A DNA stretch of 64,000 nucleotides from Candidatus Nomurabacteria bacterium (GCA_020632375.1 JACKFR010000002.1:51995-115994), one strand, 5' to 3'. Shown: positions 20,145 to 41,155, numbered from the stretch's first letter. Notes: generated by a model from the letters alone, not told the origin. Translations and numbers: made by a program.

Positions 20145-20251
20145 AAAGTTGTGCTGACAGGCTGGGATATTACTGTTTGACTTAATGTCTGCTACACTTA
20201 TAATAGCAACTAGTTAAGGATTTCCTTAAATAAAAATTTTAAAATCTGCCC

Positions 20252-22069: not shown

Positions 22070-22156
22070 AGCTAAGGAATTTTCTCTTCTCTCTTGTTTG
22101 CTTTTTGTGTATGATTGAAATATATTAAGCGAGATTATAAGTTTACTGCCCAAACC

Positions 22157-24769: not shown

Positions 24770-24780
24770 TCGATGAAATC

Positions 24781-25992
24781 ATGAGGAAATTTAAATATTC
24801 CGCTAGGACAAAAGAGGGTGCTATTTATAAGGGGTCGATGGAAGCTCGTGCCTCTAGTAGCGTTATCGAGACTCTCCAGTCAAAAGGGTTAATCGTTGTC
24901 TCGGTTGAAGAAGACCTTGGCATTGGTCTAAATCGACTTACCGAGATCAATCTCGGCGGGATACCAATGAAAGACAAAGTAATTTTTATGCGCCAGCTAT
25001 CGACGATGATTACAGCTGGCCTGCCCTTATCACAAGCATTAGAGATCCTGAATTCTCAAGCTACAAACCCCTTGTTTAAGAAAGTTCTTTCTGATGTAAC
25101 TATTTCTGTTCAAAATGGTACTAGCCTTGCAGATTCTTTCAGAAAAGCTGAAGATGTTTTTGATGAAATTACAGTTAATCTTATTGCTGCAGGTGAAGAA
25201 AGTGGCCACCTTGAAGAGATTTTAAGACGGCTTGCAGATGAGTTTGAAAATCAGAAAAAACTTAAAGATAAAATTAAGTCGGCTTTTATATATCCAGCTG
25301 TGATTTCTGTTGTCGTCGTGGCAGTAATCCTTATTTTACTGCTGGTTCTTGTTCCTGCGATGGAAGACATTTACAGTGATTTCAATGCTGAGCTACCCTG
25401 GGTTACGACATTTATGATAAATCTTAGCAATATTGTTGCTCGTTTCTGGTGGCTTATGCTTAGTTTTGTTCTAGCGATTGTGATGTTTGTAAAATATTAT
25501 ATTGAGACACCAAAGGGTAAAAGAAACTTCCATCTGTTGATTTTAAAACTTCCGGTTTTCGGAAATCTGATGACAAAAATGCAGGTGACTCAATTTACTA
25601 GGGTTCTTTCACTCCTTTTGAAAAGTGGTCTTGCAATTATTGAAGCTTTACAGCTTACAGCAGACTCATTAAGCAATGTTCTTTTTAAAGAAGCTGTATT
25701 GAAAGCAAAAGAAGAGGTTGAGAAAGGCACTTCAATGGCCACCCCTATTGCGCGAAGCGAGTATTTTCCCTTGATTGTCAGTCAAATGATTTCTGTAGGT
25801 GAAGAGTCAGGTGAAATAAGTATGGTTCTTGAAAAACTATCTGAATACTACGGCTCTGAGGTAGAAGTAATGTCTGGAAATCTAACGACTCTTCTTGAAC
25901 CCGTAGTCCTTATTATTGTTGGTCTGATAATTGCTTTTATTGCTTTAGCAGTATATATGCCAATGTTTACTCTGGTAAATGTCATAGGCTAA
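24781..25992 (+). CDS. pilC: Type IV pilus platform protein PilC (GspF family).
   Basis: 403 aa with two T2SSF repeats and 3 TM helices (…SQMISVGEESGEI…). Confidence 0.9.
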   Translation: MRKFKYSARTKEGAIYKGSMEARASSSVIETLQSKGLIVVSVEEDLGIGLNRLTEINLGGIPMKDKVIFMRQLSTMITAGLPLSQALEILNSQATNPLFKKVLSDVTISVQNGTSLADSFRKAEDVFDEITVNLIAAGEESGHLEEILRRLADEFENQKKLKDKIKSAFIYPAVISVVVVAVILILLLVLVPAMEDIYSDFNAELPWVTTFMINLSNIVARFWWLMLSFVLAIVMFVKYYIETPKGKRNFHLLILKLPVFGNLMTKMQVTQFTRVLSLLLKSGLAIIEALQLTADSLSNVLFKEAVLKAKEEVEKGTSMATPIARSEYFPLIVSQMISVGEESGEISMVLEKLSEYYGSEVEVMSGNLTTLLEPVVLIIVGLIIAFIALAVYMPMFTLVNVIG

Positions 25993-26095
25993 ATGGCTTG
26001 GACGAGCCCAGATATGCTTTTACTAAGGTATATATTTGACATCTTTGATGATTAATTCTAGATTATATGTATATAAGCTTACACCTTGGATCTAA

Positions 26096-26623
26096 ATGAA
26101 AAAATATAAAGGTTTTACACTTGTCGAGCTCTTAATCGTGATGGGAATAATCGCAGTGCTTGCTGTGCTGGGCATCGCGGTAGCGAGATTTGCAATCCAA
26201 AGATCAAATAACATTCAACACGCTGATGCTGTTAGAGAGCTAGTTCATGCTGTTACTCTGTATCACAATGACTACCAAGAGTACCCCGATCCGACTTCAT
26301 TTACAGAACTGGTAACAACATTAGGTACTTTTACTGAAGCATTTGATCCCGGGGCAAACGCATCTTACTATTACTTTGTAAGCACCGACAAACAGAAATA
26401 TTTGATTTGTGTTAGTTATGGTGGGTGGGCCGATGTTGACGACCAAGGAGGTTACTGCGATGGCGAGGGTATTGGTAAGCTTCCTGAGGGAGTGGCTAAT
26501 AAAATTGATGAGAAGCAGCTCGCAAATCCTAAATTTACTAACCGTGTAGAGCTTCGCAAGCAGCTTGGACTGTGGTCAAATTGGGATTCAGATGCAGGGA
26601 CATGGAATGGTGCAGCGGAATAG
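26096..26623 (+). CDS. pilA: Type IV pilin (major pilin candidate), paralog 1.
   Basis: 175 aa. Class III signal K-G-FTLVELLIVMGIIAVLA (N-methylation motif, Glu+5). Confidence 0.85.
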   Translation: MKKYKGFTLVELLIVMGIIAVLAVLGIAVARFAIQRSNNIQHADAVRELVHAVTLYHNDYQEYPDPTSFTELVTTLGTFTEAFDPGANASYYYFVSTDKQKYLICVSYGGWADVDDQGGYCDGEGIGKLPEGVANKIDEKQLANPKFTNRVELRKQLGLWSNWDSDAGTWNGAAE

Positions 26624-26697
26624 TTCAGATCTTGTTGACATTGATCTGGTTTCGCTTTACAGTAAGTATAGAATTAGTTTAAATTAACTGTCCTAAT

Positions 26698-27234
26698 ATG
26701 AATAAGAAAAAACTTTATAAAGGTTTCACTCTTGTTGAACTCCTCATCGTGATGGGAATCATTGCGGTTCTCGCTGTGCTTGGTGTCGCTGTGGCTAGAT
26801 TTGCTATTCAGCGAGCTAACAACATCCAACATTCTGATGCTGTTGATGAGCTTGGAAACGCTATGCAGCTTTATTATGGTGATAAAAGAGAATATCCTAC
26901 AGTTGCAGAATTTACAGATTTTGAAACAGCCCTTGGAGCCTCTGGTGTAATGGGTCAGTATATTGATACATTTGATGCTGGTGGTACTGCAACATATTAC
27001 TACTTTGTGACTAGCGATCAGCAAAAGTACCTACTTTGTGTGAGCTATGGTGGGTCTGATGATGTTGGGAATCAAGGAGGTGGTTGTTCTGGCAATGGAT
27101 TCGGTGATTTACCAACTACGACAACTCCAGCTTCAAATAAGGAGATGGATGCTACTGTTTTTGAATCGATTGTAGTGAATCAAGCTACTTCTGGTGTATC
27201 TCAAGATTGGGATACAGCTAATGGTTGGCAATAA
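26698..27234 (+). CDS. pilA: Type IV pilin, paralog 2.
   Basis: 178 aa. N-terminus is near-identical to paralog 1, and the shared core reads YYYFV(S/T)xDxQKYLxCVSYGG. Confidence 0.85.
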   Translation: MNKKKLYKGFTLVELLIVMGIIAVLAVLGVAVARFAIQRANNIQHSDAVDELGNAMQLYYGDKREYPTVAEFTDFETALGASGVMGQYIDTFDAGGTATYYYFVTSDQQKYLLCVSYGGSDDVGNQGGGCSGNGFGDLPTTTTPASNKEMDATVFESIVVNQATSGVSQDWDTANGWQ

Positions 27235-27258
27235 TGTCAGTTAATATCGGATTCGACT

Positions 27259-27292
27259 AAGAGGAGGTTGTGTAGCCTCCTCTTTTCATTTA
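27259..27292 (+). terminator. Rho-independent terminator after the second pilin gene.
   Basis: AAGAGGAGG-ttgtgtag-CCTCCTCTT followed by TTCATTTAGATTGTTTTT. Confidence 0.55.
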
Positions 27293-27302
27293 GATTGTTT
27301 TT

Positions 27303-28070
27303 ATGGAAATTTTTTTAACTATCGTAATTGCTCTGTCAGGGAGTGCATTTGCAAGTTTTTTTTCTGTTGTTGTTTACCGTGCAGAAAAGTACCAAGGGTA
27401 TAGAGGTATTTTATTCGGCAGGTCATATTGTGATGCGTGCAAGAAACAGCTTGTTTGGTATGAACTTGTTCCTATTTTTTCTTACCTGATTCAGAGAGGG
27501 AAATGTAAAAAATGCGGTGAAAAGATACTGTTAGAATACTGGCTAGGAGAGATTTTTTTTGGATTCGGATTTGGGTTATTATTTGCCTTTGGAGGAAGTA
27601 TAATTGATTACCTTGTTCTTACAGTGCTAGGGTTTCTTGCTCTTTATGATTATGCTGCACATGGCGTGCCAAAAAAGATTATGAACTTACTTCTTCTATT
27701 GGGGTTTATTTATAGAGTCGTTTTAATCGCCTTTTTTCAGCCAAGAGATTTATTACCTCTCCTTATTGCGGTTTTAGCTGCAGTCATTTTCTATTTCGTG
27801 CTAAATAAGTTTAAGAAATCATTCGGGCTGGGAGACCTGTTGGTCTTCTTGTTTCTTTTTTTTACAATATCAGTACACATGGTCATTGCGGTCTTCTTTT
27901 TTTCGATTCTGATTGGCGGTCTGGTCTCTTCTATTCTTGTTTTATTCAAGAAGATTTCAAGAAAATCATATGTGCCATTCATCCCATTTATTTTCTTCGC
28001 ATATCCTTTGTCTTATGTTTTCGGTGAAAAGGTCTTAGCCTACTTTGCCACTCTATTACAGCTGTGGTAG
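27303..28070 (+). CDS. pilD: Prepilin peptidase PilD (A24 family).
   Basis: 255 aa. N-terminal CxxC...CxxC (CDACKKQ...CKKCGEK) zinc motif and polytopic membrane topology, immediately after the pilin genes. Confidence 0.75.
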   Translation: MEIFLTIVIALSGSAFASFFSVVVYRAEKYQGYRGILFGRSYCDACKKQLVWYELVPIFSYLIQRGKCKKCGEKILLEYWLGEIFFGFGFGLLFAFGGSIIDYLVLTVLGFLALYDYAAHGVPKKIMNLLLLLGFIYRVVLIAFFQPRDLLPLLIAVLAAVIFYFVLNKFKKSFGLGDLLVFLFLFFTISVHMVIAVFFFSILIGGLVSSILVLFKKISRKSYVPFIPFIFFAYPLSYVFGEKVLAYFATLLQLW

Positions 28071-28111
28071 ATTATATTCGTAGATAATCCTACGACGTTT
28101 TAAGCTGCTCT

Positions 28112-28891
28112 ATGAAAATCATAACCAAATCCTCTCACCCCCTGTATGAAGGTTTCACCCTGACGGAGCTTCTTGTCGTTATGATTATTTTTTCTGTATT
28201 AACGGCAATCTCAGTAGCGACTTTCTCGAGTCTTCGTACTAATATTCTCTTGAGCGAAGAGTCTCAGAATGTCTCTCAGCTGATTCGCAAGACACAAAGA
28301 AGCTCTTTGCTCCTTGAACGTAAGGTTGATGAAAAATGGCTTTATGGAATCGGACTTGATTTTAGTACAACCCATGTCGATAACAAGTATAAAGTCTTTA
28401 AATGGTGTTCTACATTCAATTATTACGGGGATCTACTTACATCAGGTAATTTCCCTAACTTTGACCCAGGAGATCCTTTAGGGCCAACTAATGGGAATAT
28501 TCCTAGTCCGGTAACCGATAGCGATGCATATGTTTTAAGTTGTAATAAGTCTGCAATTTTACCAAGTGACGGGGGTCTGTCTAAGCAGGCAGCTGAGTTC
28601 ACAAATATACAAGACCCATTGATAATAGGATTTAAAGGAACATTTAATACAAGACCTGTTCTTATTTTATTTGAGTCTGTTTCGGGAAGAGTCTTCTTTT
28701 ACAACAAAGACGGACTATTGCTAAACTACAATTCTGATGGTACCCCAGTATCCTCTCCTACTGATTTTGAAATGGTTCTTGCGCCTCCAAACAAGAGTCG
28801 TGGTACGCTTGTAAAAATTCATCATAGTTCTGGAAAACTGAGCACTGAGATTTTAGAAGCTTCGCAAGTTAACGATTATGAATTTAACTAA
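28112..28891 (+). CDS. Minor pilin / pseudopilin (prepilin-type N-terminus).
   Basis: 259 aa. Has EGFTLTELLVVMIIFSVLTAI. Confidence 0.7.
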   Translation: MKIITKSSHPLYEGFTLTELLVVMIIFSVLTAISVATFSSLRTNILLSEESQNVSQLIRKTQRSSLLLERKVDEKWLYGIGLDFSTTHVDNKYKVFKWCSTFNYYGDLLTSGNFPNFDPGDPLGPTNGNIPSPVTDSDAYVLSCNKSAILPSDGGLSKQAAEFTNIQDPLIIGFKGTFNTRPVLILFESVSGRVFFYNKDGLLLNYNSDGTPVSSPTDFEMVLAPPNKSRGTLVKIHHSSGKLSTEILEASQVNDYEFN

Positions 28892-29525
28892 CACATCTAA
28901 ACTAATTATGAATTTAAAGATAGATTCTGGGAAAAAATATAAAGGGCAAGGGTTTGTTGAGTCTCTGGTGGCTATCCTTGTAACTGGTCTCGCATCTATT
29001 GCTCTTATGGCTGTTGCAGCGAGGACAATTCGTGAGGTTGTCAGGAATGAACAGCTTGATCAGTTGACTCAAGAAGCGGTTAAAGGCGGGAAAATTTTAG
29101 ACTATGTCGTTGACGAGCATAATCACGGATCCGACCATACAACTCTTTTCCCTTTCAATAATGTTGATGAAGCCAAGTGTGTGGCGATTGACGGTGATAT
29201 AAATGGTGCAAATCTCTATGTTGGGGATAAATCAGACGCAGGTGACGTAGTTTGTAATTATATTTCTCCGTATAGCGGTGTTAATCCGCAGGACTGCCTT
29301 GAGGGAAATGAATCTGAAGTGAAAATTGATTCAATTGACCAGCAGGATCTTTTCAGGATTATGTGCATACACCCGGACTCAAACGCTTCTAAAGGCATTT
29401 TGGTTGTAAAGATTTATACTGGCACATTGACTTGCTCAACGCTTAATTCGAATGTGACTCAAATTCTTGACCCTTCTAGAAACTGTTTAATTTACGAATA
29501 TACAAGTGTTTATAATGTGCTTTAA
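28878..29525 (+). CDS. Minor pilin (PilV-like).
   Basis: 215 aa. Has KGQGFVESLVAILVTGLASIAL. An alternative ATG at 28908 would give a 15-aa leader. Confidence 0.6.
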   Translation: MNLTNTSKLIMNLKIDSGKKYKGQGFVESLVAILVTGLASIALMAVAARTIREVVRNEQLDQLTQEAVKGGKILDYVVDEHNHGSDHTTLFPFNNVDEAKCVAIDGDINGANLYVGDKSDAGDVVCNYISPYSGVNPQDCLEGNESEVKIDSIDQQDLFRIMCIHPDSNASKGILVVKIYTGTLTCSTLNSNVTQILDPSRNCLIYEYTSVYNVL

Positions 29526-30192
29526 GAAATCCCTAAAAAACAGAAAATATGATGGTGTCAGCCTGGTTGAAATGCTTATAACAATGGTCATCATGGTCGC
29601 AGTTTTACTTGTGACCTCAGTCATACTAATAACGCTTATAAAAGCTTCGGCGATTTCGAGCGCAAGGACTCTTTCTCGGAATGAAACTGAGTTTCTATCT
29701 CAATTGCTCCAACGTTATATAGAAAATTCTGAAGCAGATGAGATACATGTCTACAGTGTTACAGGGCGGACAATAGATGCCGATGGTAATATCGGTGGCT
29801 CTCCAGTATTAGCCGAGGTCACTGCAGGGAGTGGTGATTCCGGAAATGAGATTCAATTCAGACCTATTGATAGCGATAAATGGATTTGCATAGCAATGTA
29901 CTGCGATAATGCATCATGCAATTCCAATGCAATAGGCTATGTTGTGAAGTCTTTTTCTTCTGCCGAAGGCTTATCATGTCTAGACGGCACAAATCAAGTG
30001 ACATTTATCACTGCGGATACCGTAGATCTTGATAATTTTGAGATTCAATCTTATGTTGATCAGTCTGGTAATTACTCATTTATATTTGATGTCACTCTGA
30101 AACCGATTTATTGGATCCCTGGACGACAGTCAAGCTTCAAACCTGAATACACCCGTCAACTTATTCTTTCAACCGGCAAGTTGACCTACTAA
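29515..30192 (+). CDS. Minor pilin (PilW-like).
   Basis: Has RKYDGVSLVEMLITMVIMVAVLL. The track ORF starts at a GTG at 29506; the first ATG is at 29515. Confidence 0.6.
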   Translation: MCFKKSLKNRKYDGVSLVEMLITMVIMVAVLLVTSVILITLIKASAISSARTLSRNETEFLSQLLQRYIENSEADEIHVYSVTGRTIDADGNIGGSPVLAEVTAGSGDSGNEIQFRPIDSDKWICIAMYCDNASCNSNAIGYVVKSFSSAEGLSCLDGTNQVTFITADTVDLDNFEIQSYVDQSGNYSFIFDVTLKPIYWIPGRQSSFKPEYTRQLILSTGKLTY

Positions 30193-30241
30193 AAGCTATT
30201 TGTTAAATTAATTCTATTGTATCGGTAGTTTATAAATCCTT

Positions 30242-31255
30242 ATGGTCAAGCTTAAATACGAAGGTCAAGCATTAGCGATTGTGTTAATAGTCCTCATTGT
30301 TGCAGTTATCATTGCATTAGCTGTTGTTTCTCGTACACTAAGCGATCGGACACAGGTTATTAAGGAGCGCTCTTCTGCGGATGCTGTCGAAGCAGCCAAT
30401 TCTACTCTTGACGCTGTAGCAGGAATTAGTATAGCTGATCTCGCAGAGTATGCTGAGGGAACAGGTAGAACTGTTTGTGGTCTCGGACCGACAGATAACT
30501 TTGCTGATGTAGGATGCCATATTGAAAGTGTAGATGACTTAGAAACACTTCTTGATAACTTTGGTCTATCTGCTTTCTATGATTCAATCTCGAACGATCT
30601 CGCTGCAAAATGCCCAGCAACTGATTCAAACCAGTTTAATAAGTCTTTAAATCTTAGCTTTGAGTATGCAAGTGAGGACGATGAAATAACAATTGAAAAA
30701 GATTCAGTTTTTTCAATTGTTAACAATGGAAATCCTCCTAATAATAATCCCGGGACATGTGCGATTGATTTGAATGCCACACCCCTACCTTCCGGCTCAA
30801 CTGCAGGTGTTATTACAAGTGCAGTCTATGTTACGAAGAGTGGAAATGATATCGCTAGCTTTAAACAGTATCGGTATCCTGATGTCAAAGCTTTTTGCAT
30901 ATCTGATGGATGTAACGGAAGTGCAGACTGGGTCGAATCTTCGAATTCAAGCTGGGGACTTCGACTCACAGGTAATATAGATGATGTACCTATTATTAAA
31001 ACGATAGGTTCTACTGATTACTATCTGCAAGAAGTTAGGATTAAGCCTGTTGGATCTGATATCAACTTGACTAGGCAAGAGACAGGAGGTACAGATTGTG
31101 TTAGTTTTAGAGACCTCTTAAAAGTAAGTGCAACTGTAAATTGTGGAGATACTGCGAGAGGTAGAGAGATTGTGCTTACAGACGATGAATGGGCACCTGC
31201 AATATTTGATTATGTAGTGTTTAATGGAAATGGAGTTTTAGAATTATCTCAGTAA
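30242..31255 (+). CDS. Minor pilin (PilX-like).
   Basis: 337 aa. Has YEGQALAIVLIVLIVAVIIALAVV. Confidence 0.5.
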   Translation: MVKLKYEGQALAIVLIVLIVAVIIALAVVSRTLSDRTQVIKERSSADAVEAANSTLDAVAGISIADLAEYAEGTGRTVCGLGPTDNFADVGCHIESVDDLETLLDNFGLSAFYDSISNDLAAKCPATDSNQFNKSLNLSFEYASEDDEITIEKDSVFSIVNNGNPPNNNPGTCAIDLNATPLPSGSTAGVITSAVYVTKSGNDIASFKQYRYPDVKAFCISDGCNGSADWVESSNSSWGLRLTGNIDDVPIIKTIGSTDYYLQEVRIKPVGSDINLTRQETGGTDCVSFRDLLKVSATVNCGDTARGREIVLTDDEWAPAIFDYVVFNGNGVLELSQ

Positions 31256-31289
31256 TTAAGCATATTTAAAATCTTTAGGAAGGTTAAGA

Positions 31290-31712
31290 ATGGATGAGGA
31301 TAATAAAAAGATTGGCATATTAATCGTTGAGGACGAAGTACCTTTACTTGATACGTATGCTGAGATTTTATCTGGAGAGGGATATCAAGTATTTAAAGCC
31401 GAGGGAGGGGTTAGAGGACTACAGTTGATTGAAGAAAATAAAGCAGTCATTAAAGTTGTTTTTCTAGATTTAATGATGTCGGGAATGGATGGGTTGGATG
31501 TTTTACGAAAGGTCAAAAGCGATAGTGCTAAATATGGCTCCCCTAAAGTTATTGTTCTAACTAATATGACCAGTGAGCAGATTATTAAAGAGGCTTTTAT
31601 GATTGGTGCAGATTCGTATTTAATTAAGTCTGAGCTGGATGCAAAAGACATGAAGACTGAAATTGCTAATGTTTTACCGCAAGAAGCGGGAGCTGCTCAA
31701 AATACAAACTAA
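31290..31712 (+). CDS. Single-domain CheY-like response regulator (PilH/PilG-like) inside the pilus operon.
   Basis: 140 aa. Has ILIVEDEVPLL..., VVFLDLMMSGMDG, a conserved Thr and a Lys. Confidence 0.8.
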   Translation: MDEDNKKIGILIVEDEVPLLDTYAEILSGEGYQVFKAEGGVRGLQLIEENKAVIKVVFLDLMMSGMDGLDVLRKVKSDSAKYGSPKVIVLTNMTSEQIIKEAFMIGADSYLIKSELDAKDMKTEIANVLPQEAGAAQNTN

Positions 31713-32369
31713 ATGAAAGAAATTAAGATAAATATAACTAGGAGAAAGCTTATTGCATTGGGGTTGGTTTTTGTGGTTTTGGTCGGAGCTGTTATTGGAT
31801 GGATTGTGGTTAGACCGAAATTGAATACTAACAGTAATGTTGATAAAGAGATTGAAAACGCCCAATACCCATTTTTTCCTGAGCAGTATTACGAAGTGTA
31901 TATGACTCCTGATAACAGCTGGAAGATCAAAAATTTTCAGCCTATTGTTACCGGATTCGAAGATAATGGTACTGCTCAGTACATTTTAGCAAAGTACAAA
32001 GATTATAATGGTGATGTTCGCACGATCAAGATTTATACTACCGGTGCAATTTTAGATCAGCCCGGGCGTGAGAAAATCGGGCTACAAGAAACTGAAGAAG
32101 TGTCAAAACAGGTCACATTCACAGAGCTGAAAGATATCGTTAAAAAAGGTGACCAGATAGATGTCCTTTATCTGGCTGAGTTTACAATTTCGCAAGATAT
32201 CGGAGATATCTGCGTGGGCAAAGAAGATTTATGTGCTCATTCGTCAGTAATGGGAAGGATTTACAACGATTTGCAGTCTTTTGTTACAAATAAAACTGCG
32301 GCAGATGGGTTTGTATTACCTGCTTTTTCAATTAATCTTGTTAATGAGACAAAGGAGAGCAATATCTAA
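31713..32369 (+). CDS. Membrane-anchored hypothetical protein.
   Basis: 218 aa with a single N-terminal TM (LIALGLVFVVLVGAVIGWIVV). Its stop overlaps the start of the giant protein gene. Confidence 0.5.
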   Translation: MKEIKINITRRKLIALGLVFVVLVGAVIGWIVVRPKLNTNSNVDKEIENAQYPFFPEQYYEVYMTPDNSWKIKNFQPIVTGFEDNGTAQYILAKYKDYNGDVRTIKIYTTGAILDQPGREKIGLQETEEVSKQVTFTELKDIVKKGDQIDVLYLAEFTISQDIGDICVGKEDLCAHSSVMGRIYNDLQSFVTNKTAADGFVLPAFSINLVNETKESNI

Positions 32370-35300
32370 TGGCACTGTCAAACAAACTTTCAAAATTACT
32401 CGGATTCTCAGCAGTTTTGTTTGTATTTGGATTTGTCGCTGCTAAAAGTAGCTATGCAGATCCAGATGATTACTGTCCGCCCAATCCAGGTGGGTATTGT
32501 TATGGAACTACAGTACAGCAGAGAGCTGTCGGTTGTAAGGAAGTCCCAGGGAGTAATTTTTGTACTACAAGGTGGTCAGATGTTTATGTATACCAGTGTA
32601 CAGATCCTTATTGTAACGCTCAAAATAATCCATATAACGGTGTAAGATGTGTAGTGAATGCACAACCACCTAATTGTGATGAAGAAATTGAGTATTTTAA
32701 CTACAATTTTAACTGCTGCGTTAACCCAGGAGGTGGAGATGACGGCGGCGGTGATGGTGGCGGTGGTGGTGGTGAACCTCCTCCCCCTCCGGGAGGTGGA
32801 GCGTGTGGTTGTTGTAACGTAGATGACTATAATGGCATTGAGTGCTCTGATACACCGCCTATTGGGGATGGCGATGGAAAGCTTGAATGTTGTTGCGGAA
32901 CAGGAGATTGTTATAGCGATGATACGGGTTCATGTCTTTCAAATCCGTCACAGTGTGGTAACGACTGCTCCCCGCAAGGAAGCTGTTCTTGTAATCCGGT
33001 TTGTCCCGAAGGCTCATCTACAGACTTCACTGGAGAGCTATGTTATGTCGGAGACCAAAGCTGCAACTGTAATGATTGTTTAGGAGATACTTACACTAAT
33101 TCAGGTGGACAATGTTACTCTCCTGAGACCAATGTAGTATCTGACCCACCAGCTTATATTGGTATGATTGTAGCTGGGTTTGATATTCATCTTAGTTCTA
33201 CTGGCAATACTGTGATTCCCAGGCCTTTAGAAAGTGAGAATGAACAGGTTCAAGCTTATCTTCCTGCATTTCCTGGAGATACAGATCTTTCAAGAGCTGT
33301 GAAATATAGAATAAACTTTAATAATCAGGGGCCAGTACCGCTAACAGCTCCATGGAGGTATGTAAATAATAACCCTTCGGAAGATTTTTTTGCACCAATT
33401 CAATGTGATACTAGTAATGTCGGGACAGATAGAATTGTAGATCTTGAGCCTGGTGCAGAAAGCATTTACGATGTCCTTGACCATGGTTATATTGGTGGTG
33501 CTTGGAGTGCTTATGCAACAGTAGATGCCTGTCAGGATGCGTGTAAAAACAGCTCTAATACTACTGGTAATTATGTTGTTAATAGTTATCCTACTTACAG
33601 TTCCATCGAGAATGTTACTGCTGCTAATCCTGACGATTATCTCGGTTGTTCTTCTACAGAATACAGCAGTAGAAATGTTAATAACCCTGTGAATTTCAAG
33701 GTTAAGGTTTCAGATGTAAACGGGGCAAGCAATATAGAAACAATTGCAGTATGGTTCAAGCAGTCAGGTGGACCACCTACGATTCAGGATCTAACTGTAT
33801 ACCCTTCATCTCCTTACTCAAGCCCTGAGATAAAAAACAACAATTCATTTGGATTTCTTGTTGAAAAAGCTCGAAACACAAATCAGTGGAAATATGTTTT
33901 TGTCCCGCATAATATTAACGGAAATAACTGGATCTGGTGGCGGGATGACACTAACTATACAGTTTCGAAGACGCAGAATACAGACTTGGTAAGAATAAAT
34001 GGTGCTTCTGGTAACCCACTTGCAATTATTAGAGATGTTTCTGTCAATGAAGTCGGAAATGATGCTACGCTTGATTTTAAAATCGAATTTATTACTAGTG
34101 ATACTGGCATTACACCTTTTGAACAGGTTCCAGATAACCCGTATGAGCTTTATGCTGCCGTTGGTGATGAATTTGAATTTAAAGCTGACGACCCGCTTAT
34201 AAACCGTGTTACCCCAAGCTGGAATGATACTGGCGAAGGCTGGGATGTAGACATGACTCCTCCCACATATGACCAAGATGTAAGTGTTGTCGGATCGGAG
34301 CTTATTCAGATAGATTGGCATGCAAATGAGCCGGGTAATCATAAAAGTGGTCTTTTTCATGTTGTCGGAGATGCAAGCTATTCACTTTATGAGCCCGGTG
34401 ACGAGATCAGGAATCGAAATGATCCACCGGGGCAGAATTACGGCTTCTCTCCATCTGCTGACCTGTTTACAAATGTATATCCTAATCAGCACTTGTGGTA
34501 TAAGACTGGTATATCAGGTAATGGATCTAACGGATCACCAGTTATACAGATCTTCGATCTTGAAGAGGGCTCGTTAGACTTTTGTGGTGGAGCATTTGAT
34601 CATGCATGTAATACTTCTTCAGGAATAGATGATGGCGGTTTGATAGGAAGCGGCTCGCACTGTGTATCTCAGGCTCTTGGCAAACCATGGATGATGTCAC
34701 GAGCAGGTCATATATATAGTAAAGGGGGGACAAGTCTTTTTGTCCCCGAACTTACAAGTGATCCTAATCCTACTGGCTTTCTTACGGATCAGAATTATCC
34801 TTCCGGGAGTGATTCTATTTGGGATCAACCGTTTAGATTCCAGCTTACAAATGGAGTGAGAAATCCTCCAGATTATGATATTTCGCTTACCTCAGAGGGT
34901 TTGTTGGGATTAGTTCCTACTTCGGGATTAGATAAGACTTCAGGTTTTGGGTACTCTTTAGCAAATTATACTGAGCAGAATAATACTCAAGGCTTCTGGT
35001 TCGATGAGTTGAAGCGTTTATATACTGGAAATAAGTCTAAGTCTGGTGTGCATTTAAAGCAAGTTACATATCCTTCCTCGATCTCAGCAAATAAGAAGGT
35101 CTCTAATTCTTGTTCGATTGGAAGCAATGATGCTTGTGTTTATGTCATGGGTAGCTCTTCTAATCTTTCCATCGGGCAAAACTTCCAGTGTGACCTGCCT
35201 GCAGTGTTTTTCATAAACGGTTCATTAACTATCAACCCTGATTTACTCCGAGATGATGGTGAGGCGCTGAACGGCTGTGTTTTTGTTGTCCAAGGCGATG

Positions 35301-35677
35301 TTGATATTAAGCCGGGCAAAGATCAAAATGAACCTGGTGTATGTAGTTCTGATGTAAACGATCCTGGTTGTTATCCGATGTATGATTTACTAGAAGCGTT
35401 TATTATTTCTGAAGGTCAGATTACAATCGAACCTGATGAAAGAGTTAATCCTAATCTCCTTAATGATGGTCTACTTGTTCATGGGAGTCTGGTAGCTTTT
35501 GGCGGGAACGCATCTAATCCTTCAATTGTTATTCAAAGATCTCTTAAACTTGTTAACAATCTCAAATATCCTTCTGCTGCTTTCCATTATGATCCCAGAT
35601 ATCTTGAAATCGCTAAAACTGTTTTTGGAAGAGAGAAAGAAGCGTACAGAAAAGACATCGGGTTTAAGCCACTTTAG
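32369..35677 (+). CDS. Large secreted Cys-rich protein. Positional analog of the PilY1/pilus-tip adhesin.
   Basis: 1102 aa. Sec signal peptide MALSNKLSKLLGFSAVLFVFGFVAAKSSYA, more than 40 Cys in the first 300 aa, and a Gly/Pro tract GGGDDGGGDGGGGGGEPPPPPGGG. Sits between the minor pilins and pilMNO. Confidence 0.7.
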   Translation: MALSNKLSKLLGFSAVLFVFGFVAAKSSYADPDDYCPPNPGGYCYGTTVQQRAVGCKEVPGSNFCTTRWSDVYVYQCTDPYCNAQNNPYNGVRCVVNAQPPNCDEEIEYFNYNFNCCVNPGGGDDGGGDGGGGGGEPPPPPGGGACGCCNVDDYNGIECSDTPPIGDGDGKLECCCGTGDCYSDDTGSCLSNPSQCGNDCSPQGSCSCNPVCPEGSSTDFTGELCYVGDQSCNCNDCLGDTYTNSGGQCYSPETNVVSDPPAYIGMIVAGFDIHLSSTGNTVIPRPLESENEQVQAYLPAFPGDTDLSRAVKYRINFNNQGPVPLTAPWRYVNNNPSEDFFAPIQCDTSNVGTDRIVDLEPGAESIYDVLDHGYIGGAWSAYATVDACQDACKNSSNTTGNYVVNSYPTYSSIENVTAANPDDYLGCSSTEYSSRNVNNPVNFKVKVSDVNGASNIETIAVWFKQSGGPPTIQDLTVYPSSPYSSPEIKNNNSFGFLVEKARNTNQWKYVFVPHNINGNNWIWWRDDTNYTVSKTQNTDLVRINGASGNPLAIIRDVSVNEVGNDATLDFKIEFITSDTGITPFEQVPDNPYELYAAVGDEFEFKADDPLINRVTPSWNDTGEGWDVDMTPPTYDQDVSVVGSELIQIDWHANEPGNHKSGLFHVVGDASYSLYEPGDEIRNRNDPPGQNYGFSPSADLFTNVYPNQHLWYKTGISGNGSNGSPVIQIFDLEEGSLDFCGGAFDHACNTSSGIDDGGLIGSGSHCVSQALGKPWMMSRAGHIYSKGGTSLFVPELTSDPNPTGFLTDQNYPSGSDSIWDQPFRFQLTNGVRNPPDYDISLTSEGLLGLVPTSGLDKTSGFGYSLANYTEQNNTQGFWFDELKRLYTGNKSKSGVHLKQVTYPSSISANKKVSNSCSIGSNDACVYVMGSSSNLSIGQNFQCDLPAVFFINGSLTINPDLLRDDGEALNGCVFVVQGDVDIKPGKDQNEPGVCSSDVNDPGCYPMYDLLEAFIISEGQITIEPDERVNPNLLNDGLLVHGSLVAFGGNASNPSIVIQRSLKLVNNLKYPSAAFHYDPRYLEIAKTVFGREKEAYRKDIGFKPL

Positions 35678-35700
35678 TAGTTGGTAATTAGCCGAATCTT

Positions 35701-35730
35701 TTGACTTTAAAGCACTTCTCTGCTATCAAT
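35701..35730 (+). promoter_or_regulatory. Candidate sigma70-like promoter for pilMNO (TTGACT, 17-nt spacer, TATCAAT).
   Basis: Sequence ttgactttaaagcacttctctgctatcaat precedes the pilM ATG at 35761. The track ORF start at 35701 is this TTG. Confidence 0.3.
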
Positions 35731-35760
35731 TATGTTGATATAAAATATGATCGACTGCCC

Positions 35761-36795
35761 ATGGCAAAGCTGCCAAACCACGTTGGAATTGACTTCGGAA
35801 ACCATACTGTAAAAGCTGTAGAACTAAAAGATGTTGATGGAGAATCCCCTACTCTTGTTAACTTTGGCAGTCAGCCAACACCTCATGGAGTTATAAACAG
35901 CTCTGATACTGATCATCAACGGAAATTGGCAGATGCTCTGAAAGAAATGTATTCTGCTTCTGGGATAGATAACAAAAAGGTAGTTTTAGCTATACCTGAA
36001 TCTGCTGTGTTTACAAGATTTCTGGAGCTGCCCGGTATTAAAGATGACGAACTACAGAGTGCTGTCTTTTATCAGGCGAAAGAATATCTCCCGATGCCTT
36101 TTGAAGATGTCAGGATGAGCTTTATTAAGATTGGGTTTAATAAAGATAAGAATGCCCATAGGGTTTTGCTTGTCGCAGCACCGAAGAAAATAGTGGATAT
36201 TTACCAGAATGTGTCAGATATGGCTGGGATCGAGCCGGTCGCAATTGAAACCGAGTCTATTGCAATGGGCAGAGCGATGTATCGAGCAACTAAAGAAACT
36301 CAGCTTGTTATGCTGGATTTCGGTTCAGAAACTACTGATATGAGTATTATGGCAGATGGGTATCTTGTTTTTTCTCAGAGTATTTCAATCGGCTCAGATG
36401 CTTTAACCCAGGCGATTGTTAATCAATTTAACTTTGAATATGTTCAAGCTGAAGAGTATAAAAGAAATTATGGTCTTAATGAAGATGCTTTAGAAGGAAA
36501 GATTTCACAAACTCTTTCTCCAATTATGTCTTCTATCCTGACTGAAGTGCGCAGAGGAGTAGAGTTTTACAAAAGCAAGACGCTTCTTCCAGCTCCTAAG
36601 AAATATGTCTTGAGCGGCGATGGGGCTCTTCTTCCAGGACTTGCGGACTACATTAGCTCAAATCTATCAATATCTGCAGAAGTAGCAAATCCATGGAGCG
36701 GTATTAAAGTGCCAGATAAATATGCAAAAGTAATTCAGAAAAGCAAGCCTTCTTTTGCAGTCTCGATAGGGCTTGCTCTAAAAGCAGATATATGA
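35761..36795 (+). CDS. pilM: Type IV pilus assembly protein PilM (actin-like ATPase fold).
   Basis: Has MAKLPNHVGIDFGNHTVKAVEL and the PilM/FtsA-like fold. The ATG at 35761 is preferred over the TTG at 35701. Confidence 0.8.
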   Translation: MAKLPNHVGIDFGNHTVKAVELKDVDGESPTLVNFGSQPTPHGVINSSDTDHQRKLADALKEMYSASGIDNKKVVLAIPESAVFTRFLELPGIKDDELQSAVFYQAKEYLPMPFEDVRMSFIKIGFNKDKNAHRVLLVAAPKKIVDIYQNVSDMAGIEPVAIETESIAMGRAMYRATKETQLVMLDFGSETTDMSIMADGYLVFSQSISIGSDALTQAIVNQFNFEYVQAEEYKRNYGLNEDALEGKISQTLSPIMSSILTEVRRGVEFYKSKTLLPAPKKYVLSGDGALLPGLADYISSNLSISAEVANPWSGIKVPDKYAKVIQKSKPSFAVSIGLALKADI

Positions 36796-37658
36796 CACCT
36801 GAAGAAATAAAAAAGAAGGCCGCAGAACTTCAGACTGAAAAAGAATCCCTACCGCAAAATGGTCTTCAGAAGGCTGTCGGAGAAAAGCCAAGCGAAGTTA
36901 GTAAACCGGCGAACTCAGCTGATCCAGCCACTGAGAGTAAAAAACAAACACCAGATGCAAATGATGAAAAATCTCAGTCAGGTTCAGAAAGTAATTCAAA
37001 GAAAGCCCCGAAAGACACTTCAGCAAAATCTTCCACGCAGAAAAAAGAAAAGGACTTCATATCTACAATCTATTTCGGAAATGGTATAAACCTTGTTCCT
37101 ATACTTTCGGATGAAGAAGAAAAGCTTGAAGAAAAGAAATTGAATTTTAACTACTTTGGTGCTTTTGTTCTGTTATTCCTAGCGATTCTTGCATTAGTCC
37201 TGATCGGCATAAAAGCGTATAACCAGGCTGGGCTAAACAATGAAAAGTCTAGTCTTGCTGCGGCAGAAAAAGAATTCAGAGGAAAGTCAGATATTATCCA
37301 GGCAAATAACAGCATCTTGAGAAGAGTTGACTTATATCAGAATATTGAGGCAGCAACTTTCTCTCCGAAAGAGGCTTTATTGTATTGGCAAGAACTCTTT
37401 GGAAAATTTGGGACAATAAGCAAGATTGAGCTTACTAGCGGACTTAATTTCCAAATAAGTGGTTCTGCGAGTAATTTAACAGAAGTTTCTAGGTTGTGGC
37501 ATTTACTAAGCGTAGACGAAAGAGTCGCCAGAGTGAATCTGGACTCAGTAGATACAGCATATGTTGATGAAACAACTTCTGGGAAGAAAGCCTCATATAC
37601 ATTTACAGGTGAATTAAATTTTGATTATTTTAGTTCTGAAGCATTGAGACCACAATGA
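36792..37658 (+). CDS. pilN: PilN-like bitopic membrane protein with a Lys/Ser/Glu-rich N-terminal extension.
   Basis: 288 aa. Single TM (FGAFVLLFLAILALVLIGI) followed by a periplasmic coiled-coil-like region. Translationally coupled to pilM (ATGA). Confidence 0.5.
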   Translation: MTPEEIKKKAAELQTEKESLPQNGLQKAVGEKPSEVSKPANSADPATESKKQTPDANDEKSQSGSESNSKKAPKDTSAKSSTQKKEKDFISTIYFGNGINLVPILSDEEEKLEEKKLNFNYFGAFVLLFLAILALVLIGIKAYNQAGLNNEKSSLAAAEKEFRGKSDIIQANNSILRRVDLYQNIEAATFSPKEALLYWQELFGKFGTISKIELTSGLNFQISGSASNLTEVSRLWHLLSVDERVARVNLDSVDTAYVDETTSGKKASYTFTGELNFDYFSSEALRPQ

Positions 37659-38398
37659 GCTTGATTAAGAGCCGAAGTGCTGATATTGGCAATAACGAAC
37701 AAAAAATAAAGAAGTACACAATCGGAGATTTACTGATTCCTTTATTAAGCATAATAATTTTTGCTATTTTAACTATCGCATTATATGTTCCGGCGATTTC
37801 GGATATATGGGAAATCAGAAAAGATATAAAAGATGTACAAGACAAGAAGGTTTTTATTGATTCAAATCTTAAGATAGTAGATACTTTGAATCAGGATAAG
37901 ATTGGATTATTAGATTCCGCTAGAATTGCAAGGTTAATTGTTCCCACAGAATTAGATGTTTCCAATTTTACCTATTATGTTGATAAATTGGCTAAAGAAA
38001 ATAATCTTGAATTTAAAGAAGTTTCTTCGACAAATATCTCAGTTGACGCATCAAGCATAGAGAATCTCTCACTTGAAGAAGGTGTTAAAGGAATAAGCGG
38101 TCCATTTGTGTATAACGGTTCTTACGACGACATTGTTTCGTTCTTAGATAAACTACAGGCAGATTCTCCTTACATTGTGTCAGCAAGCTCAGTTTCGTTA
38201 AAACAAGAATTGGCTGATCCAAATGCAAAGAAGCAACCTGCTGAAAGTTGGACATTAGAATTAAGCATAACTGGTTACTATGCTGAGGGCAGGCAAAATG
38301 TAACTGTAAGCCCTTACCAGAAGGTTACACCATACTCTAATTATAAAGACATATTGAATGTGTTTACAAAGAAAGCAGAAAAGCTAAGCTCACAGTAA
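37655..38398 (+). CDS. pilO: PilO-like bitopic membrane protein.
   Basis: 247 aa. Single TM (LLIPLLSIIIFAILTIALYV). Overlaps pilN by 4 nt. Confidence 0.45.
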   Translation: MSLIKSRSADIGNNEQKIKKYTIGDLLIPLLSIIIFAILTIALYVPAISDIWEIRKDIKDVQDKKVFIDSNLKIVDTLNQDKIGLLDSARIARLIVPTELDVSNFTYYVDKLAKENNLEFKEVSSTNISVDASSIENLSLEEGVKGISGPFVYNGSYDDIVSFLDKLQADSPYIVSASSVSLKQELADPNAKKQPAESWTLELSITGYYAEGRQNVTVSPYQKVTPYSNYKDILNVFTKKAEKLSSQ

Positions 38399-40882: not shown

Positions 40883-41155
40883 ATGGATAATTTAGTTTTA
40901 CAAAGAATTCGTGATTTTCTGAAATCTCAAGGGGTAAGTGAAGATAGCCCTAACTTTGAGATGCTATTCAACAAAACTCTTTCGACTTTTCTTGGGTATG
41001 TCAGTACAAAATACAATAATCTTGAAATAGAAGGTTTAGTAGACGATATTTTAAACCGAGTCGATCTTAAAAAAGTAGAACAGAAAATAGAAGCTATAAA
41101 ATTAACTGAAAAAGAACAGATAAATTTATTAGAAGAATTTCTTAATGAGATTTGA
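40883..41155 (+). CDS. Hypothetical small protein.
   Basis: The track ORF starts at a TTG at 40856; the first ATG is at 40883 (MDNLVLQRI...). Confidence 0.35.
   Translation: MDNLVLQRIRDFLKSQGVSEDSPNFEMLFNKTLSTFLGYVSTKYNNLEIEGLVDDILNRVDLKKVEQKIEAIKLTEKEQINLLEEFLNEI

What the first reader, a model, noticed from the sequence alone, without database searches (positions are those of the whole stretch)
31290..35677. CheY-like regulator, membrane protein and a 1102-aa Cys-rich secreted protein inserted between the minor pilins and pilMNO (PilY1-position adhesin candidate)
The giant protein has a Sec signal peptide (not a prepilin leader), more than 40 cysteines in the first 300 residues, and a Gly/Pro tract encoded by a near-perfect (GGY)n/(CCN)n trinucleotide run at about 32737-32800. 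That run could expand or contract in frame. It occupies the slot that PilY1-type tip adhesins occupy in proteobacterial minor-pilin operons but looks unrelated in sequence. The embedded single-domain response regulator (PilH/PilG-like) indicates dedicated signalling control.
Basis: partly seen in the sequence, partly recalled or inferred. Interest (0 to 1): 0.55.

Follow-up and report, generated by a model that had tools for sequence, protein, structure and literature searches.

The report
Candidate pilus-tip adhesin of ultrasmall bacteria
A 1102-residue secreted, cysteine-rich protein in the type IV pilus gene cluster of an ultrasmall (CPR/Dojkabacteria-like) bacterium belongs to an undescribed family that almost always sits beside a capping-type minor pilin gene. 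It is probably the pilus-borne host-binding protein of these bacteria, doing the job of PilY1 with a different fold.

Summary
The three ORFs are real and at the stated coordinates. They are a REC-only response regulator, a 218-aa protein with one N-terminal membrane helix, and a 1102-aa Sec-signal protein, lying between four minor-pilin genes and pilMNO.

Two details in the finding are wrong. There are 29 Cys in the first 300 residues (42 in total), not more than 40. The GGN/CCN run is imperfect, with (GGT)4 as its longest perfect stretch. An independent assembly of the same gene differs by one extra GGT there, the only indel in 6.1 kb, so the tract does vary in frame.

The giant protein matches no Pfam, NCBIfam or PDB-sequence family, but it has 262 cluster representatives among related proteins. 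These share:
- a Sec signal peptide;
- a variable Cys-rich N-terminus, with lectin or CBM modules in some members;
- β-sandwich domains;
- a conserved β-solenoid domain always at the extreme C-terminus.

In 21 of 23 informative related loci the gene lies in the same T4P slot or directly beside a homologue of the fourth minor pilin, including stand-alone cassettes far from other pilus genes. One related T4P locus lacks it, so it is an accessory insert.

Best reading is a non-pilin, pilus-associated adhesin, analogous to PilY1 but not homologous to it. This rests on genomic context, not experiment. The regulator is a core locus gene, and its PilG/PilH identity is unproven.

The parts
28112..30192 (+). 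Three minor-pilin-like genes (28112-28891, 28878-29525, 29506-30192) with prepilin-type N-termini
   Evidence: N_methyl/IV_pilin_GFxxxE hits for the first and third. The second has KG|QGFVE, which puts Glu at +5. Homologues keep the same order in L001, L003 and L005.
30242..31255 (+). Fourth minor-pilin-like gene ('mp4', 337 aa), a capping-type pilin candidate with leader ...KYEG|QALAIVLIV and no Glu5
   Evidence: The Y-x-[AG]-Q-A-L-A N-terminus is conserved in 13 homologues. No Pfam or PDB-sequence match. A profile search of the 5.8-billion-protein collection returned 74 relatives, none with a Pfam annotation; the few that carry organism names are CPR (WS6/Dojkabacteria, Minisyncoccales). It is the gene most constantly adjacent to the giant protein.
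31290..31712 (+). Single-domain response regulator (REC only, 140 aa)
   Evidence: PF00072 E 4.3e-20. Acidic pair E14/D15, D60, T91 and K113 are present (read). Conserved after mp4 in L001, L003-L005, L007, L018, L021, L024 and L028.
31713..32369 (+). 218-aa bitopic protein: N-terminal membrane helix (residues about 13-33) plus an extracytoplasmic domain of about 180 aa. Its stop overlaps the start of the giant gene.
   Evidence: Homologues lie directly upstream of the giant gene in L001 and L005 and one gene further upstream in L004 (jackhmmer). A bitopic N-terminal-TM protein lies immediately upstream of the giant gene, or one gene removed, in nearly all loci.
32369..32458 (+). Sec-type signal peptide of the giant protein (aa 1-30, predicted cleavage after SYA)
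   Evidence: Read from the sequence. 87 of 107 full-length family members have an N-terminal hydrophobic h-region and none has a prepilin motif.
32459..32725 (+). N-terminal Cys-rich module 1 (aa 31-119, 10 Cys), unique to this protein
   Evidence: No representative aligns upstream of residue about 145. AF2 pLDDT is about 30.
32726..32800 (+). Gly/Asp/Pro linker (aa 120-144) encoded by an imperfect GGN/CCN run; (GGT)4 at 32762-32773 is length-polymorphic
   Evidence: A +GGT allele exists in L026/P0154. Poly-Gly tracts occur in about 15 of 107 family members at varying positions.
32801..33118 (+). Cys-rich module 2 (aa 145-250, 19 Cys)
   Evidence: Cys positions. Shared with a minority of relatives, whose alignments start at aa 145-200.
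33119..34750 (+). All-beta stalk: several beta-sandwich (Ig/FN3-like) domains (aa 251-794)
   Evidence: AF2 pLDDT mostly 80-94. Foldseek against PDB gives only generic tandem beta-sandwich proteins and adhesins.
34751..34975 (+). Low-confidence linker (aa 795-869)
   Evidence: pLDDT below 50.
34976..35677 (+). Family-defining C-terminal beta-solenoid domain (aa 870-1102) with a flanking helix and conserved Cys residues, ending in the conserved tail ...DIGFKPL
   Evidence: Domain model pLDDT 80.7, pTM 0.82. The domain is at the extreme C-terminus in 125 of 125 representatives. Invariant residues are C941, C970, G1039, R1057, P1068, G1098 and K1100. The last 13 residues are conserved but modelled with low confidence.
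35761..38398 (+). pilM (probable start ATG 35761), a pilN-like gene and a pilO-like gene
   Evidence: PilM_2 E 8e-54. Homologue starts match MAKLP(D/N)HVGIDFG. The order M-N-O is conserved in the related loci.

Best explanation
The 1102-aa protein is a Sec-exported, disulfide-rich, non-pilin accessory protein of the type IV pilus. I propose that it rides on the minor-pilin priming complex and ends up at the pilus tip, where it serves as the host- or surface-binding module.

Proposed steps:
1. It is exported by Sec and its leader is cleaved after SYA (read from sequence).
2. It is oxidatively folded outside the membrane. This is inferred: CPR genomes are enriched in MdbA-like oxidoreductases and VKOR (PMC6744442).
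3. It may be held or chaperoned by the co-translated bitopic 218-aa protein (inferred from the conserved upstream position and the TAATG overlap).
4. Its conserved C-terminal beta-solenoid and GFKP tail dock onto the Glu5-less fourth minor pilin, mp4, which caps the minor-pilin complex (inferred from gene adjacency).
5. Pilus extension then presents the beta-sandwich stalk and the variable Cys-rich or lectin-bearing N-terminus outward (inferred from the domain order and its variability).

It works like PilY1/PilC but is not homologous to them. The REC-only regulator is a core gene of this clade's pilus locus and probably modulates the pilus motor. Its partner kinase and its target are unknown.
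For: 1. Family: 262 cluster representatives at E<=1e-3 and 40 at E<=1e-30. Conservation rises toward the C-terminus. The C-terminal domain is terminal in 125 of 125.
2. Export: 87 of 107 full-length members have a Sec-like N-terminus and none has a prepilin motif. The median is 21 Cys in the first 300 residues against 7 in the rest.
3. Context, slot type: the window, L001, L003, L005, L018, L021 and L024 share the order pilC/pilin-pilD-4 minor pilins-RR-(TM protein)-giant-pilMNO. L004 and L007 have giant-mp4-RR-pilM, and L006 and L017 have giant-pilM.
4. Context, cassette type: ten stand-alone cassettes of [TM protein]-giant-mp4 lie among housekeeping genes (L008-L013, L015, L022, L025, L027). 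The giant gene therefore travels with its own copy of the capping-type pilin.
5. Accessory nature: L028 has mp4-RR-pilM with no giant gene, and L021 has two giant paralogues in the slot.
6. Modular adhesin architecture: the N-terminus is variable. About 10 of 80 members carry CBM60, ConA-like lectin, pentaxin, discoidin or other carbohydrate-binding modules.
7. Structure: a beta-sandwich stalk and a beta-solenoid C-terminal domain. A weak profile match links the latter to the carbohydrate-binding beta-helix protein 4PEU (E 1.6e-3).
8. No intrinsic terminator lies in the intergenic gaps between mp4 and pilM, and the genes are tightly packed, which fits co-transcription.
Against: - All evidence for pilus association is genomic context. 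No structure of a complex, no localisation data and no genetics exist for any member.
- mp4's identity as a GspK/PilX-type cap rests on its position and a Glu5-less N-terminus. It has no significant Pfam or PDB match, and most homologues have Ala rather than Gly at the presumed -1 cleavage position.
- Two loci (L014, L016) have a family member with no pilus gene nearby.
- The window protein itself carries no recognisable binding module, and its N-terminal 200 residues could not be modelled.
- The conserved polar residues of the C-terminal domain (Y1005, D1006, R1057, D1075, Y1078, K1100) could equally mark a ligand-binding or catalytic site.
- The loci come from one scan with a single C-terminal peptide pattern plus a few look-ups, so they are not an unbiased sample.
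Confidence: 0.55

Rival explanations
1. It is a cell-envelope or S-layer-associated surface adhesin that is co-expressed with the pilus but is not part of it. The conserved C-terminal beta-solenoid anchors it to the cell wall and the variable N-terminus binds the host after pilus retraction brings the cells together.
For: The layout of a conserved C-terminal domain with a variable N-terminus is also typical of wall-anchored surface proteins. Two family members lie away from any pilus gene (L014, L016). The Saccharibacteria study proposes additional close-range adhesins beside pili (PMC11623550).
Against: This does not explain why stand-alone cassettes carry their own mp4 pilin paralogue next to the gene in 10 loci. 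There is no known wall-binding domain, sortase motif or C-terminal TM anchor, and the protein ends at GFKPL.
Confidence: 0.2
2. It is a secreted glycan-binding or glycan-cleaving enzyme (a polysaccharide-lyase-like beta-helix) that attacks the host cell wall. The conserved C-terminal domain is the active part and the N-terminal modules target it.
For: The C-terminal profile weakly matches the polysaccharide-lyase-like protein Cthe_2159/4PEU (E 1.6e-3), and 2 of 32 members touch PF14262. Pectate lyases appear among non-significant Foldseek hits. Invariant or near-invariant Y, D, R and K residues occur in the domain. CBM and lectin modules occur in relatives.
Against: All these similarities fall below family thresholds (Foldseek E>0.2, TM at most 0.42). 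The best structural matches are non-enzymatic DUF3494 ice-binding solenoids. No catalytic family is detected in any of the 80 full-length members scanned. The coupling to a pilin gene is again unexplained.
Confidence: 0.12
3. It is a structural part of the pilus machine of a bacterium without an outer membrane. It would form a conduit or collar through the wall or S-layer, replacing the secretin-associated parts, and would not be an adhesin.
For: It lies directly upstream of pilMNO in the slot-type loci. CPR lack PilQ (PMC6744442). The protein has a long beta-sandwich array.
Against: A related pilus locus lacks it entirely (L028). Copy number varies, with two in L021 and extra cassettes elsewhere. 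The N-terminus is hypervariable and carries lectin modules, which is not expected of a machine part.
Confidence: 0.08

Closest known systems
PilY1 (Pseudomonas, Myxococcus) / PilC1-PilC2 (Neisseria) non-pilin pilus-associated adhesins
   Same: It is a large (about 1000-1160 aa) protein with a Sec signal and no pilin leader. It is encoded with the four core minor pilins, next to the PilX/GspK-type one. The C-terminal domain is conserved and the N-terminus is variable. Some genomes carry several paralogous copies with their own minor pilin, as in the three minor-pilin/PilY1 clusters of Myxococcus (Treuner-Lange 2020, cited in PMC11623550).
   Different: There is no sequence similarity and no PilC/PilY1 beta-propeller. 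The conserved C-terminal domain is a beta-solenoid. The N-terminus is extremely Cys-rich. The host is a monoderm CPR bacterium without a secretin. A bitopic membrane protein is always encoded just upstream.
ComZ of Thermus thermophilus (competence pilin with an inserted beta-solenoid, PDB 6QVI; PMC6561018)
   Same: A beta-solenoid module is proposed to sit at a type IV pilus tip together with a partner minor pilin. ComZ appears among the Foldseek hits of the C-terminal domain (rank 15).
   Different: The match is not significant (E 1.0, TM 0.27). ComZ is itself a pilin with a prepilin N-terminus, whereas this protein is Sec-exported and non-pilin.
PilX1/PilX2 of Nanosynbacter lyticus TM7x (Saccharibacteria; PMC11623550)
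   Same: These are CPR pilus-associated candidate tip adhesins with accessory domains (a jelly-roll and a 7-bladed propeller) and non-canonical leaders. Glycan binding is proposed for them.
   Different: They are pilin-like proteins with an N-terminal helix and are the likelier counterparts of mp4. No counterpart of the 1102-aa Sec protein, the REC gene or the bitopic protein is described in the TM7x loci.
DUF3494 / type-1 ice-binding-protein beta-solenoid fold
   Same: These give the best fold matches of the C-terminal domain: a right-handed solenoid with a helix alongside (7ddb_A probability 0.93, TM 0.39-0.42). DUF3494 proteins also appear among the weak BFVD hits.
   Different: E-values are 0.2-0.9 and there is no Pfam DUF3494 hit, so this is a fold-class resemblance only.
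CheY-like single-domain regulators of pilus systems (PilG/PilH of the Chp pathway)
   Same: It is a REC-only protein encoded in a type IV pilus locus, with all phospho-acceptor residues present.
   Different: None of the window ORFs scanned with Pfam is a ChpA/CheA-type kinase or any other histidine kinase. NCBIfam matches are generic, so orthology to PilG/PilH is not shown.

Membership tests
PilY1/PilC pilus adhesin family | C-terminal PilC/PilY1 beta-propeller domain (Pfam PF05567) | tested here: not met
   The window protein and 80 full-length relatives give no Pfam hit to it. AF2 models show a beta-solenoid, and Foldseek returns no propeller.
PilY1/PilC pilus adhesin family | Sec-type signal peptide, not a prepilin leader | tested here: met
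   Read from the N-terminus. 87 of 107 members have a Sec-like h-region and none has a prepilin motif. No dedicated signal-peptide predictor was available.
PilY1/PilC pilus adhesin family | Gene linked to the core minor pilins, next to the PilX/GspK-type one | tested here: met
   The window plus 21 of 23 informative loci.
PilY1/PilC pilus adhesin family | Physical presence on pili, and a role in priming or adhesion | not testable with these tools
   This needs pilus preparations, microscopy or genetics.
CheY-like REC-only response regulator | Receiver domain above the Pfam threshold, with acidic pocket, phospho-Asp, Thr and Lys, and no output domain | tested here: met
   PF00072 scores 72.4 bits against a cutoff of 30.2. 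E14/D15, D60, T91 and K113 are present, and the protein is 140 aa.
PilG/PilH (Chp chemosensory pathway) | Orthology to PilG/PilH and a linked ChpA-type kinase | tested here: not met
   The top 25 NCBIfam matches are generic regulators. No histidine kinase was found among the window ORFs scanned with Pfam. The rest of the genome was not examined.
GspK/PilX-type capping minor pilin (for mp4, 30242-31255) | Pilin-like N-terminal helix lacking Glu5, fourth gene after three canonical minor pilins | tested here: met
   KYEG|QALAIVLIV, conserved as Y-x-[AG]-Q-A-L-A. The gene order is conserved.
GspK/PilX-type capping minor pilin (for mp4, 30242-31255) | Sequence or fold match to T2SSK or PilX_N families | tested here: inconclusive
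   There is only one weak PilX_N hit (E 0.21, 1 of 13 members) and no PDB-sequence match.
Cthe_2159 / polysaccharide-lyase-like beta-helix (PF14262) | Match above the family threshold | tested here: inconclusive
   Profile against 4PEU gives E 1.6e-3 over 136 positions. 2 of 32 members hit at E about 1e-3, and the window protein gives no hit.
Simple-sequence contingency (phase-variable) locus | Long perfect repeat whose length changes switch the reading frame or the promoter | tested here: not met
   The repeat is only (GGT)4-5, its unit is 3 nt so changes stay in frame, and it lies within a linker. One in-frame length variant was observed.

The most novel reading that the evidence does not exclude
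Dojkabacteria-type CPR bacteria use an undescribed, clade-specific class of pilus-tip host-recognition proteins. An exchangeable cassette encodes a membrane-anchored helper, a giant Cys-rich protein with a beta-solenoid docking domain, and a matched Glu5-less capping pilin. The same pilus motor could then be armed with different tips, which would set host range. The GFKP tail would be the docking peptide.
Probability: 0.35. Interest if true: 0.75.

Novelty: new variant of a known kind. Interest (0 to 1): 0.6.

Why it matters
How uncultivated CPR/Patescibacteria recognise and attach to their hosts is a central open question. Type IV pili are the main suspects, and only Saccharibacteria pilins have been tested experimentally (PMC11623550).

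This finding gives a concrete, testable candidate for the binding end of the pilus in another large CPR lineage. It defines a protein family with a recognisable signature: a Sec signal, a Cys-rich variable head, a beta-sandwich stalk and a terminal beta-solenoid ending in GFKP. The family has a predicted partner (mp4), and the paralogous cassettes could be compared with host associations in metagenomes.

It would also be a second, independent solution to attaching a non-pilin adhesin to a type IV pilus.

Tried and rejected
- Direct family assignment of the giant protein failed. Pfam, NCBIfam, PHROGs and PDB sequences gave nothing. The only PDB-sequence hits, to cytochrome bc1 subunit 8 at E 0.002-0.005, are chance matches.
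- The word-indexed protein search found only the protein itself, and only two relatives when given a profile. The family became visible only with the exhaustive HMMER scan.
A C-terminal sub-alignment worked, but it used a single peptide pattern, so the 17 loci it returned are a biased sample.
- Whole-model Foldseek gave only generic beta-sandwich arrays. Domain-level Foldseek against PDB and BFVD gave no significant hit.
- PilY1 homology is rejected because there is no propeller.
- Phase variation by the Gly tract is rejected because changes are in frame and the tract is short.
- A sortase, PEP-CTERM or similar sorting signal at the C-terminus is rejected, because the protein ends at GFKPL with no hydrophobic segment.
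- A second paralogue in the window was sought and not found.
- The literature searches found no description of this family.

Full report
**Setting**

The window comes from a CPR/Patescibacteria genome. The 1102-aa protein is identical to NCBI MCB9790685.1 (H6764_01540), which is labelled Candidatus Nomurabacteria. An identical 544-aa fragment from another study is labelled Candidatus Dojkabacteria. The relatives that carry organism names are WS6/Dojkabacteria or generically labelled 'Saccharibacteria' MAGs.

The region 20252-38398 is a complete type IV pilus (T4P) locus on the + strand:

| Gene | Coordinates | Evidence or note |
|---|---|---|
| pilB | 20252-22069 | T2SSE 3e-121 |
| pilT-like ATPase | 22115-24769 | long low-complexity N-terminus |
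| pilC | 24781-25992 | |
| two pilin genes | 26096-26623, 26698-27234 | |
| pilD | 27303-28070 | |
| four minor-pilin-like genes | 28112-31255 | |
| the three genes of the finding | 31290-35677 | |
| pilM | 35701-36795 | PilM_2 8e-54 |
| pilN-like and pilO-like genes | 36792-38398 | |

The best promoter-like site lies before pilB. A strong terminator-like hairpin follows the second pilin gene. No terminator lies in the intergenic gaps between the fourth minor pilin and pilM.

**Checking the observation**

The three ORFs exist exactly as stated. The stop of the 218-aa gene overlaps the ATG of the 1102-aa gene as TAATG.

- The 140-aa protein is a receiver domain only (PF00072, 4.3e-20). It has E14/D15, D60, T91 and K113.
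- The 218-aa protein has one N-terminal membrane helix and matches no family.
- The 1102-aa protein has a Sec-type leader and no prepilin motif.

The cysteine count was misstated. There are 29 Cys in the first 300 residues and 42 overall. The enrichment is still extreme: 13.2% in residues 31-250 against 0.51% in 35 other window proteins.

The trinucleotide run at 32726-32800 encodes PGGGDDGGGDGGGGGGEPPPPPGGG. It is imperfect, with Tandem Repeats Finder scores of 36-47, and its longest perfect stretch is (GGT)4 at 32762-32773.

A second assembly of the same gene (Logan SRR12358675, P0154/L026) matches the window over 6111 bp except for two SNPs and one extra GGT in this tract. Because the unit is three bases and the tract lies in a linker, this alters linker length only. 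It is not an on/off switch.

**What the giant protein is**

The protein matches nothing in Pfam, NCBIfam, PHROGs or PDB sequences. The word-indexed search found only the protein itself.

An exhaustive HMMER scan of 1.84 billion cluster representatives found 262 relatives at E<=1e-3, 199 at 1e-10 and 40 at 1e-30. Most alignments cover residues about 860-1102. Fewer cover 400-1102, and a handful start at 145-200. None covers residues 31-144.

Among 107 full-length members, 87 have a Sec-like N-terminus and none has a prepilin motif. The median is 21 Cys in the first 300 residues and 7 in the rest. About 15 have poly-Gly tracts at varying positions. The conserved C-terminal domain lies at the very end of the protein in 125 of 125 representatives. 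It ends in a (E/D)(V/I)GFKP(L/Y/F) motif in which G1098 and K1100 are invariant.

Structure prediction gave two models.

- The full-length model used a 34-sequence alignment (pLDDT 67). It leaves residues 22-207 unmodelled. It gives confident beta-sandwich domains from about 250 to 790, a low-confidence linker at 795-869, and a helix followed by triplets of short strands from 870 to 1090. Foldseek against PDB returned only generic tandem Ig/FN3-type arrays, including several adhesins, and no beta-propeller.
- The C-terminal domain modelled alone is confident (pLDDT 80.7, pTM 0.82). It is a beta-solenoid with a flanking helix.

The best fold matches of the C-terminal domain are DUF3494 ice-binding-type solenoids (probability up to 0.93, TM about 0.4, E 0.27). 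ComZ of Thermus appears at E 1.0. Neither match is significant, and BFVD gave nothing better. A profile of the domain weakly matches the carbohydrate-binding beta-helix protein 4PEU (E 1.6e-3). A few members touch the Pfam families Cthe_2159, FapA and DUF7305 below threshold.

In both models the last 13 residues are conserved but modelled with low confidence. I read this as a possible partner-binding tail, which is an inference.

Scanning 80 full-length members against Pfam showed accessory carbohydrate-binding modules in about ten of them: CBM60, ConA-like/Laminin_G_3, pentaxin, F5/8-type C, DUF2341, GH130-like and Gly_rich_2. The architecture is therefore a variable head, a stalk and a conserved tail domain.

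**Genomic context across relatives**

A scan of one genome per species returned 17 loci. Contig look-ups for distant members and for mp4 homologues added 12 more. I annotated all of them with phmmer and HMM profiles of the window's proteins.

| Pattern | Loci | Gene order |
|---|---|---|
| Slot type | window, L001, L003, L005, L018, L021, L024 | pilin-pilD-mp1-mp2-mp3-mp4-RR-(bitopic TM protein)-giant-pilM-N-O, often with the same downstream KH/S16/RNase III/NusB/ClpB genes |
| Slot-type variants | L004, L007 | giant-mp4-RR-pilM |
| Slot-type, truncated view | L006, L017 | giant-pilM |
| Cassette type | L008-L013, L015, L022, L025, L027 (ten loci) | [bitopic TM protein]-giant-mp4, among unrelated housekeeping genes, with no other pilus gene within 8-10 kb |

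Only L014 and L016 have a family member without a nearby pilus gene. Three contigs were too short to judge.

Three further observations matter.

- L021 has two family members in tandem in the slot.
- L028, found through its mp4 homologue, has mp4-RR-pilM with nothing in between. The bitopic protein plus the giant protein are therefore an optional insert, while the regulator belongs to the core locus.
- The gene just upstream of the giant gene, or one gene removed, almost always encodes a protein with a single N-terminal membrane helix. It is detectably homologous to the window's 218-aa protein in L001, L004 and L005.

The constant partner, mp4, has a short basic leader and a conserved Y-x-[AG]-Q-A-L-A hydrophobic N-terminus without Glu5. 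It lies fourth after three canonical minor pilins. That position and that property are those of the GspK/PilX-type capping subunit in established T2SS and T4aP knowledge. It has no significant Pfam or PDB match. A profile search returned 74 relatives, none with a Pfam annotation. Most are unnamed, and the few with organism names are CPR (WS6/Dojkabacteria, Minisyncoccales).

**Interpretation**

The most economical reading is that the giant protein is a non-pilin accessory of the pilus. It would dock through its conserved C-terminal domain onto the capping minor pilin and be displayed at the tip, with its variable head as the binding surface. This is how PilY1/PilC are thought to work.

Several features are shared with PilY1/PilC: size, Sec export, a variable N-terminus with a conserved C-terminus, linkage to the PilX-type minor pilin, and multiple paralogous copies. 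Membership of that family fails, however, because the defining beta-propeller is absent. This is an analogue with a different fold.

The high Cys content fits an extracellular, disulfide-stabilised protein. CPR genomes are enriched in MdbA-like oxidoreductases and VKOR (PMC6744442). The lectin and CBM modules in relatives fit glycan recognition, as proposed for Saccharibacteria pili (PMC11623550).

What is shown:
- the family exists;
- its architecture;
- its gene linkage;
- the tract polymorphism.

What is inferred:
- export and disulfide formation;
- docking on mp4;
- tip location;
- adhesion;
- a helper role for the bitopic protein.

**Rivals**

- A wall-anchored adhesin merely co-expressed with pili. 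This does not explain the private mp4 copy in the cassettes.
- A lyase-like enzyme. This rests only on sub-threshold beta-helix similarities.
- A machine component. This conflicts with the locus that lacks the gene, the variable copy number and the hypervariable head.

**The regulator**

It is a complete REC domain, conserved in this clade's pilus locus after mp4, and it remains when the giant protein is absent. None of the window ORFs scanned with Pfam is a histidine kinase. The NCBIfam matches are generic. Calling it PilG/PilH-like is an analogy, not a finding. The claim of signalling dedicated to the giant protein is not supported.

**Novelty**

I found no description of this family or of the cassette in the searchable literature. 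The TM7x pilus study describes pilin-type tip candidates but no Sec-exported giant protein, no REC gene and no bitopic partner.

I rate it a new variant of a known kind, namely a non-pilin pilus-associated adhesin. Interest is moderate to high because it gives a testable handle on host recognition in an uncultivated lineage. Confidence is limited by the purely contextual evidence.

Noticed in passing
window 22115-24769 (+): The PilT-like ATPase (884 aa) carries an N-terminal Ser/Asp/Glu/Pro-rich low-complexity extension of about 520 aa before its T2SSE domain (residues 535-805). This is unusual for a retraction ATPase.
   Followed up: no
window 27259-27284 (+) and 20177-20204 (+): An 11-bp-stem terminator-like hairpin lies directly after the second pilin gene, which may attenuate transcription between the major pilins and the rest of the locus. 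The best sigma-70-like promoter match (11 of 12) lies just upstream of pilB.
   Followed up: partly
window 47386-48588 (-): A 400-aa protein matches the Nup98-type autopeptidase S59 domain (PF04096, 34.5 bits, above its cutoff) and also a Glucodextranase_B domain. This combination is odd for a bacterium.
   Followed up: no
window 3686-6559 (-) and 41145-42134 (+): A 957-aa and a 329-aa ORF have no Pfam match at all.
   Followed up: no
window 32369-35677; P0001 vs P0153: There is a taxonomic label clash. The same protein sequence is filed under Candidatus Nomurabacteria (full length) and Candidatus Dojkabacteria (an identical 544-aa fragment). Synteny and all relatives point to the WS6/Dojkabacteria group.
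   Followed up: partly
L028 3749-6271: A related T4P locus has mp4-RR-pilM directly adjacent, with no bitopic protein or giant protein. The pair is therefore an optional insert and the regulator is a core gene.
   Followed up: yes
L021 5103-14581: Two family members (1285 and 1526 aa, both with a Gly_rich_2 domain) sit in tandem in the slot between the regulator and pilM, separated by a 327-aa bitopic protein.
   Followed up: partly
L009, L012, L025, L029: The stand-alone giant-mp4 cassette recurs at the same chromosomal site in several Dojkabacteria, between an RNase T-like gene and 2-oxoacid:ferredoxin oxidoreductase genes. In L029 the site holds mp4 preceded only by a 177-aa ORF with a faint match to the giant family, which may be a remnant.
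   Followed up: partly
window 35701-35761: The mechanical TTG start of pilM at 35701 is probably wrong. Homologues, and the gene call in L026, start at the ATG at 35761 (MAKLPNHVGIDFG).
   Followed up: partly
window 28878-31255: Besides the giant protein, minor pilins 2-4 are the only proteins among the 35 window proteins tallied with more than 2% Cys (2.2-2.8% against a 0.5% background). This fits disulfide-bonded extracellular parts.
   Followed up: partly
window 36792-37658 (+): The PilN-like protein has an N-terminal Lys/Ser/Glu-rich low-complexity extension of about 100 aa before its membrane helix.
   Followed up: no
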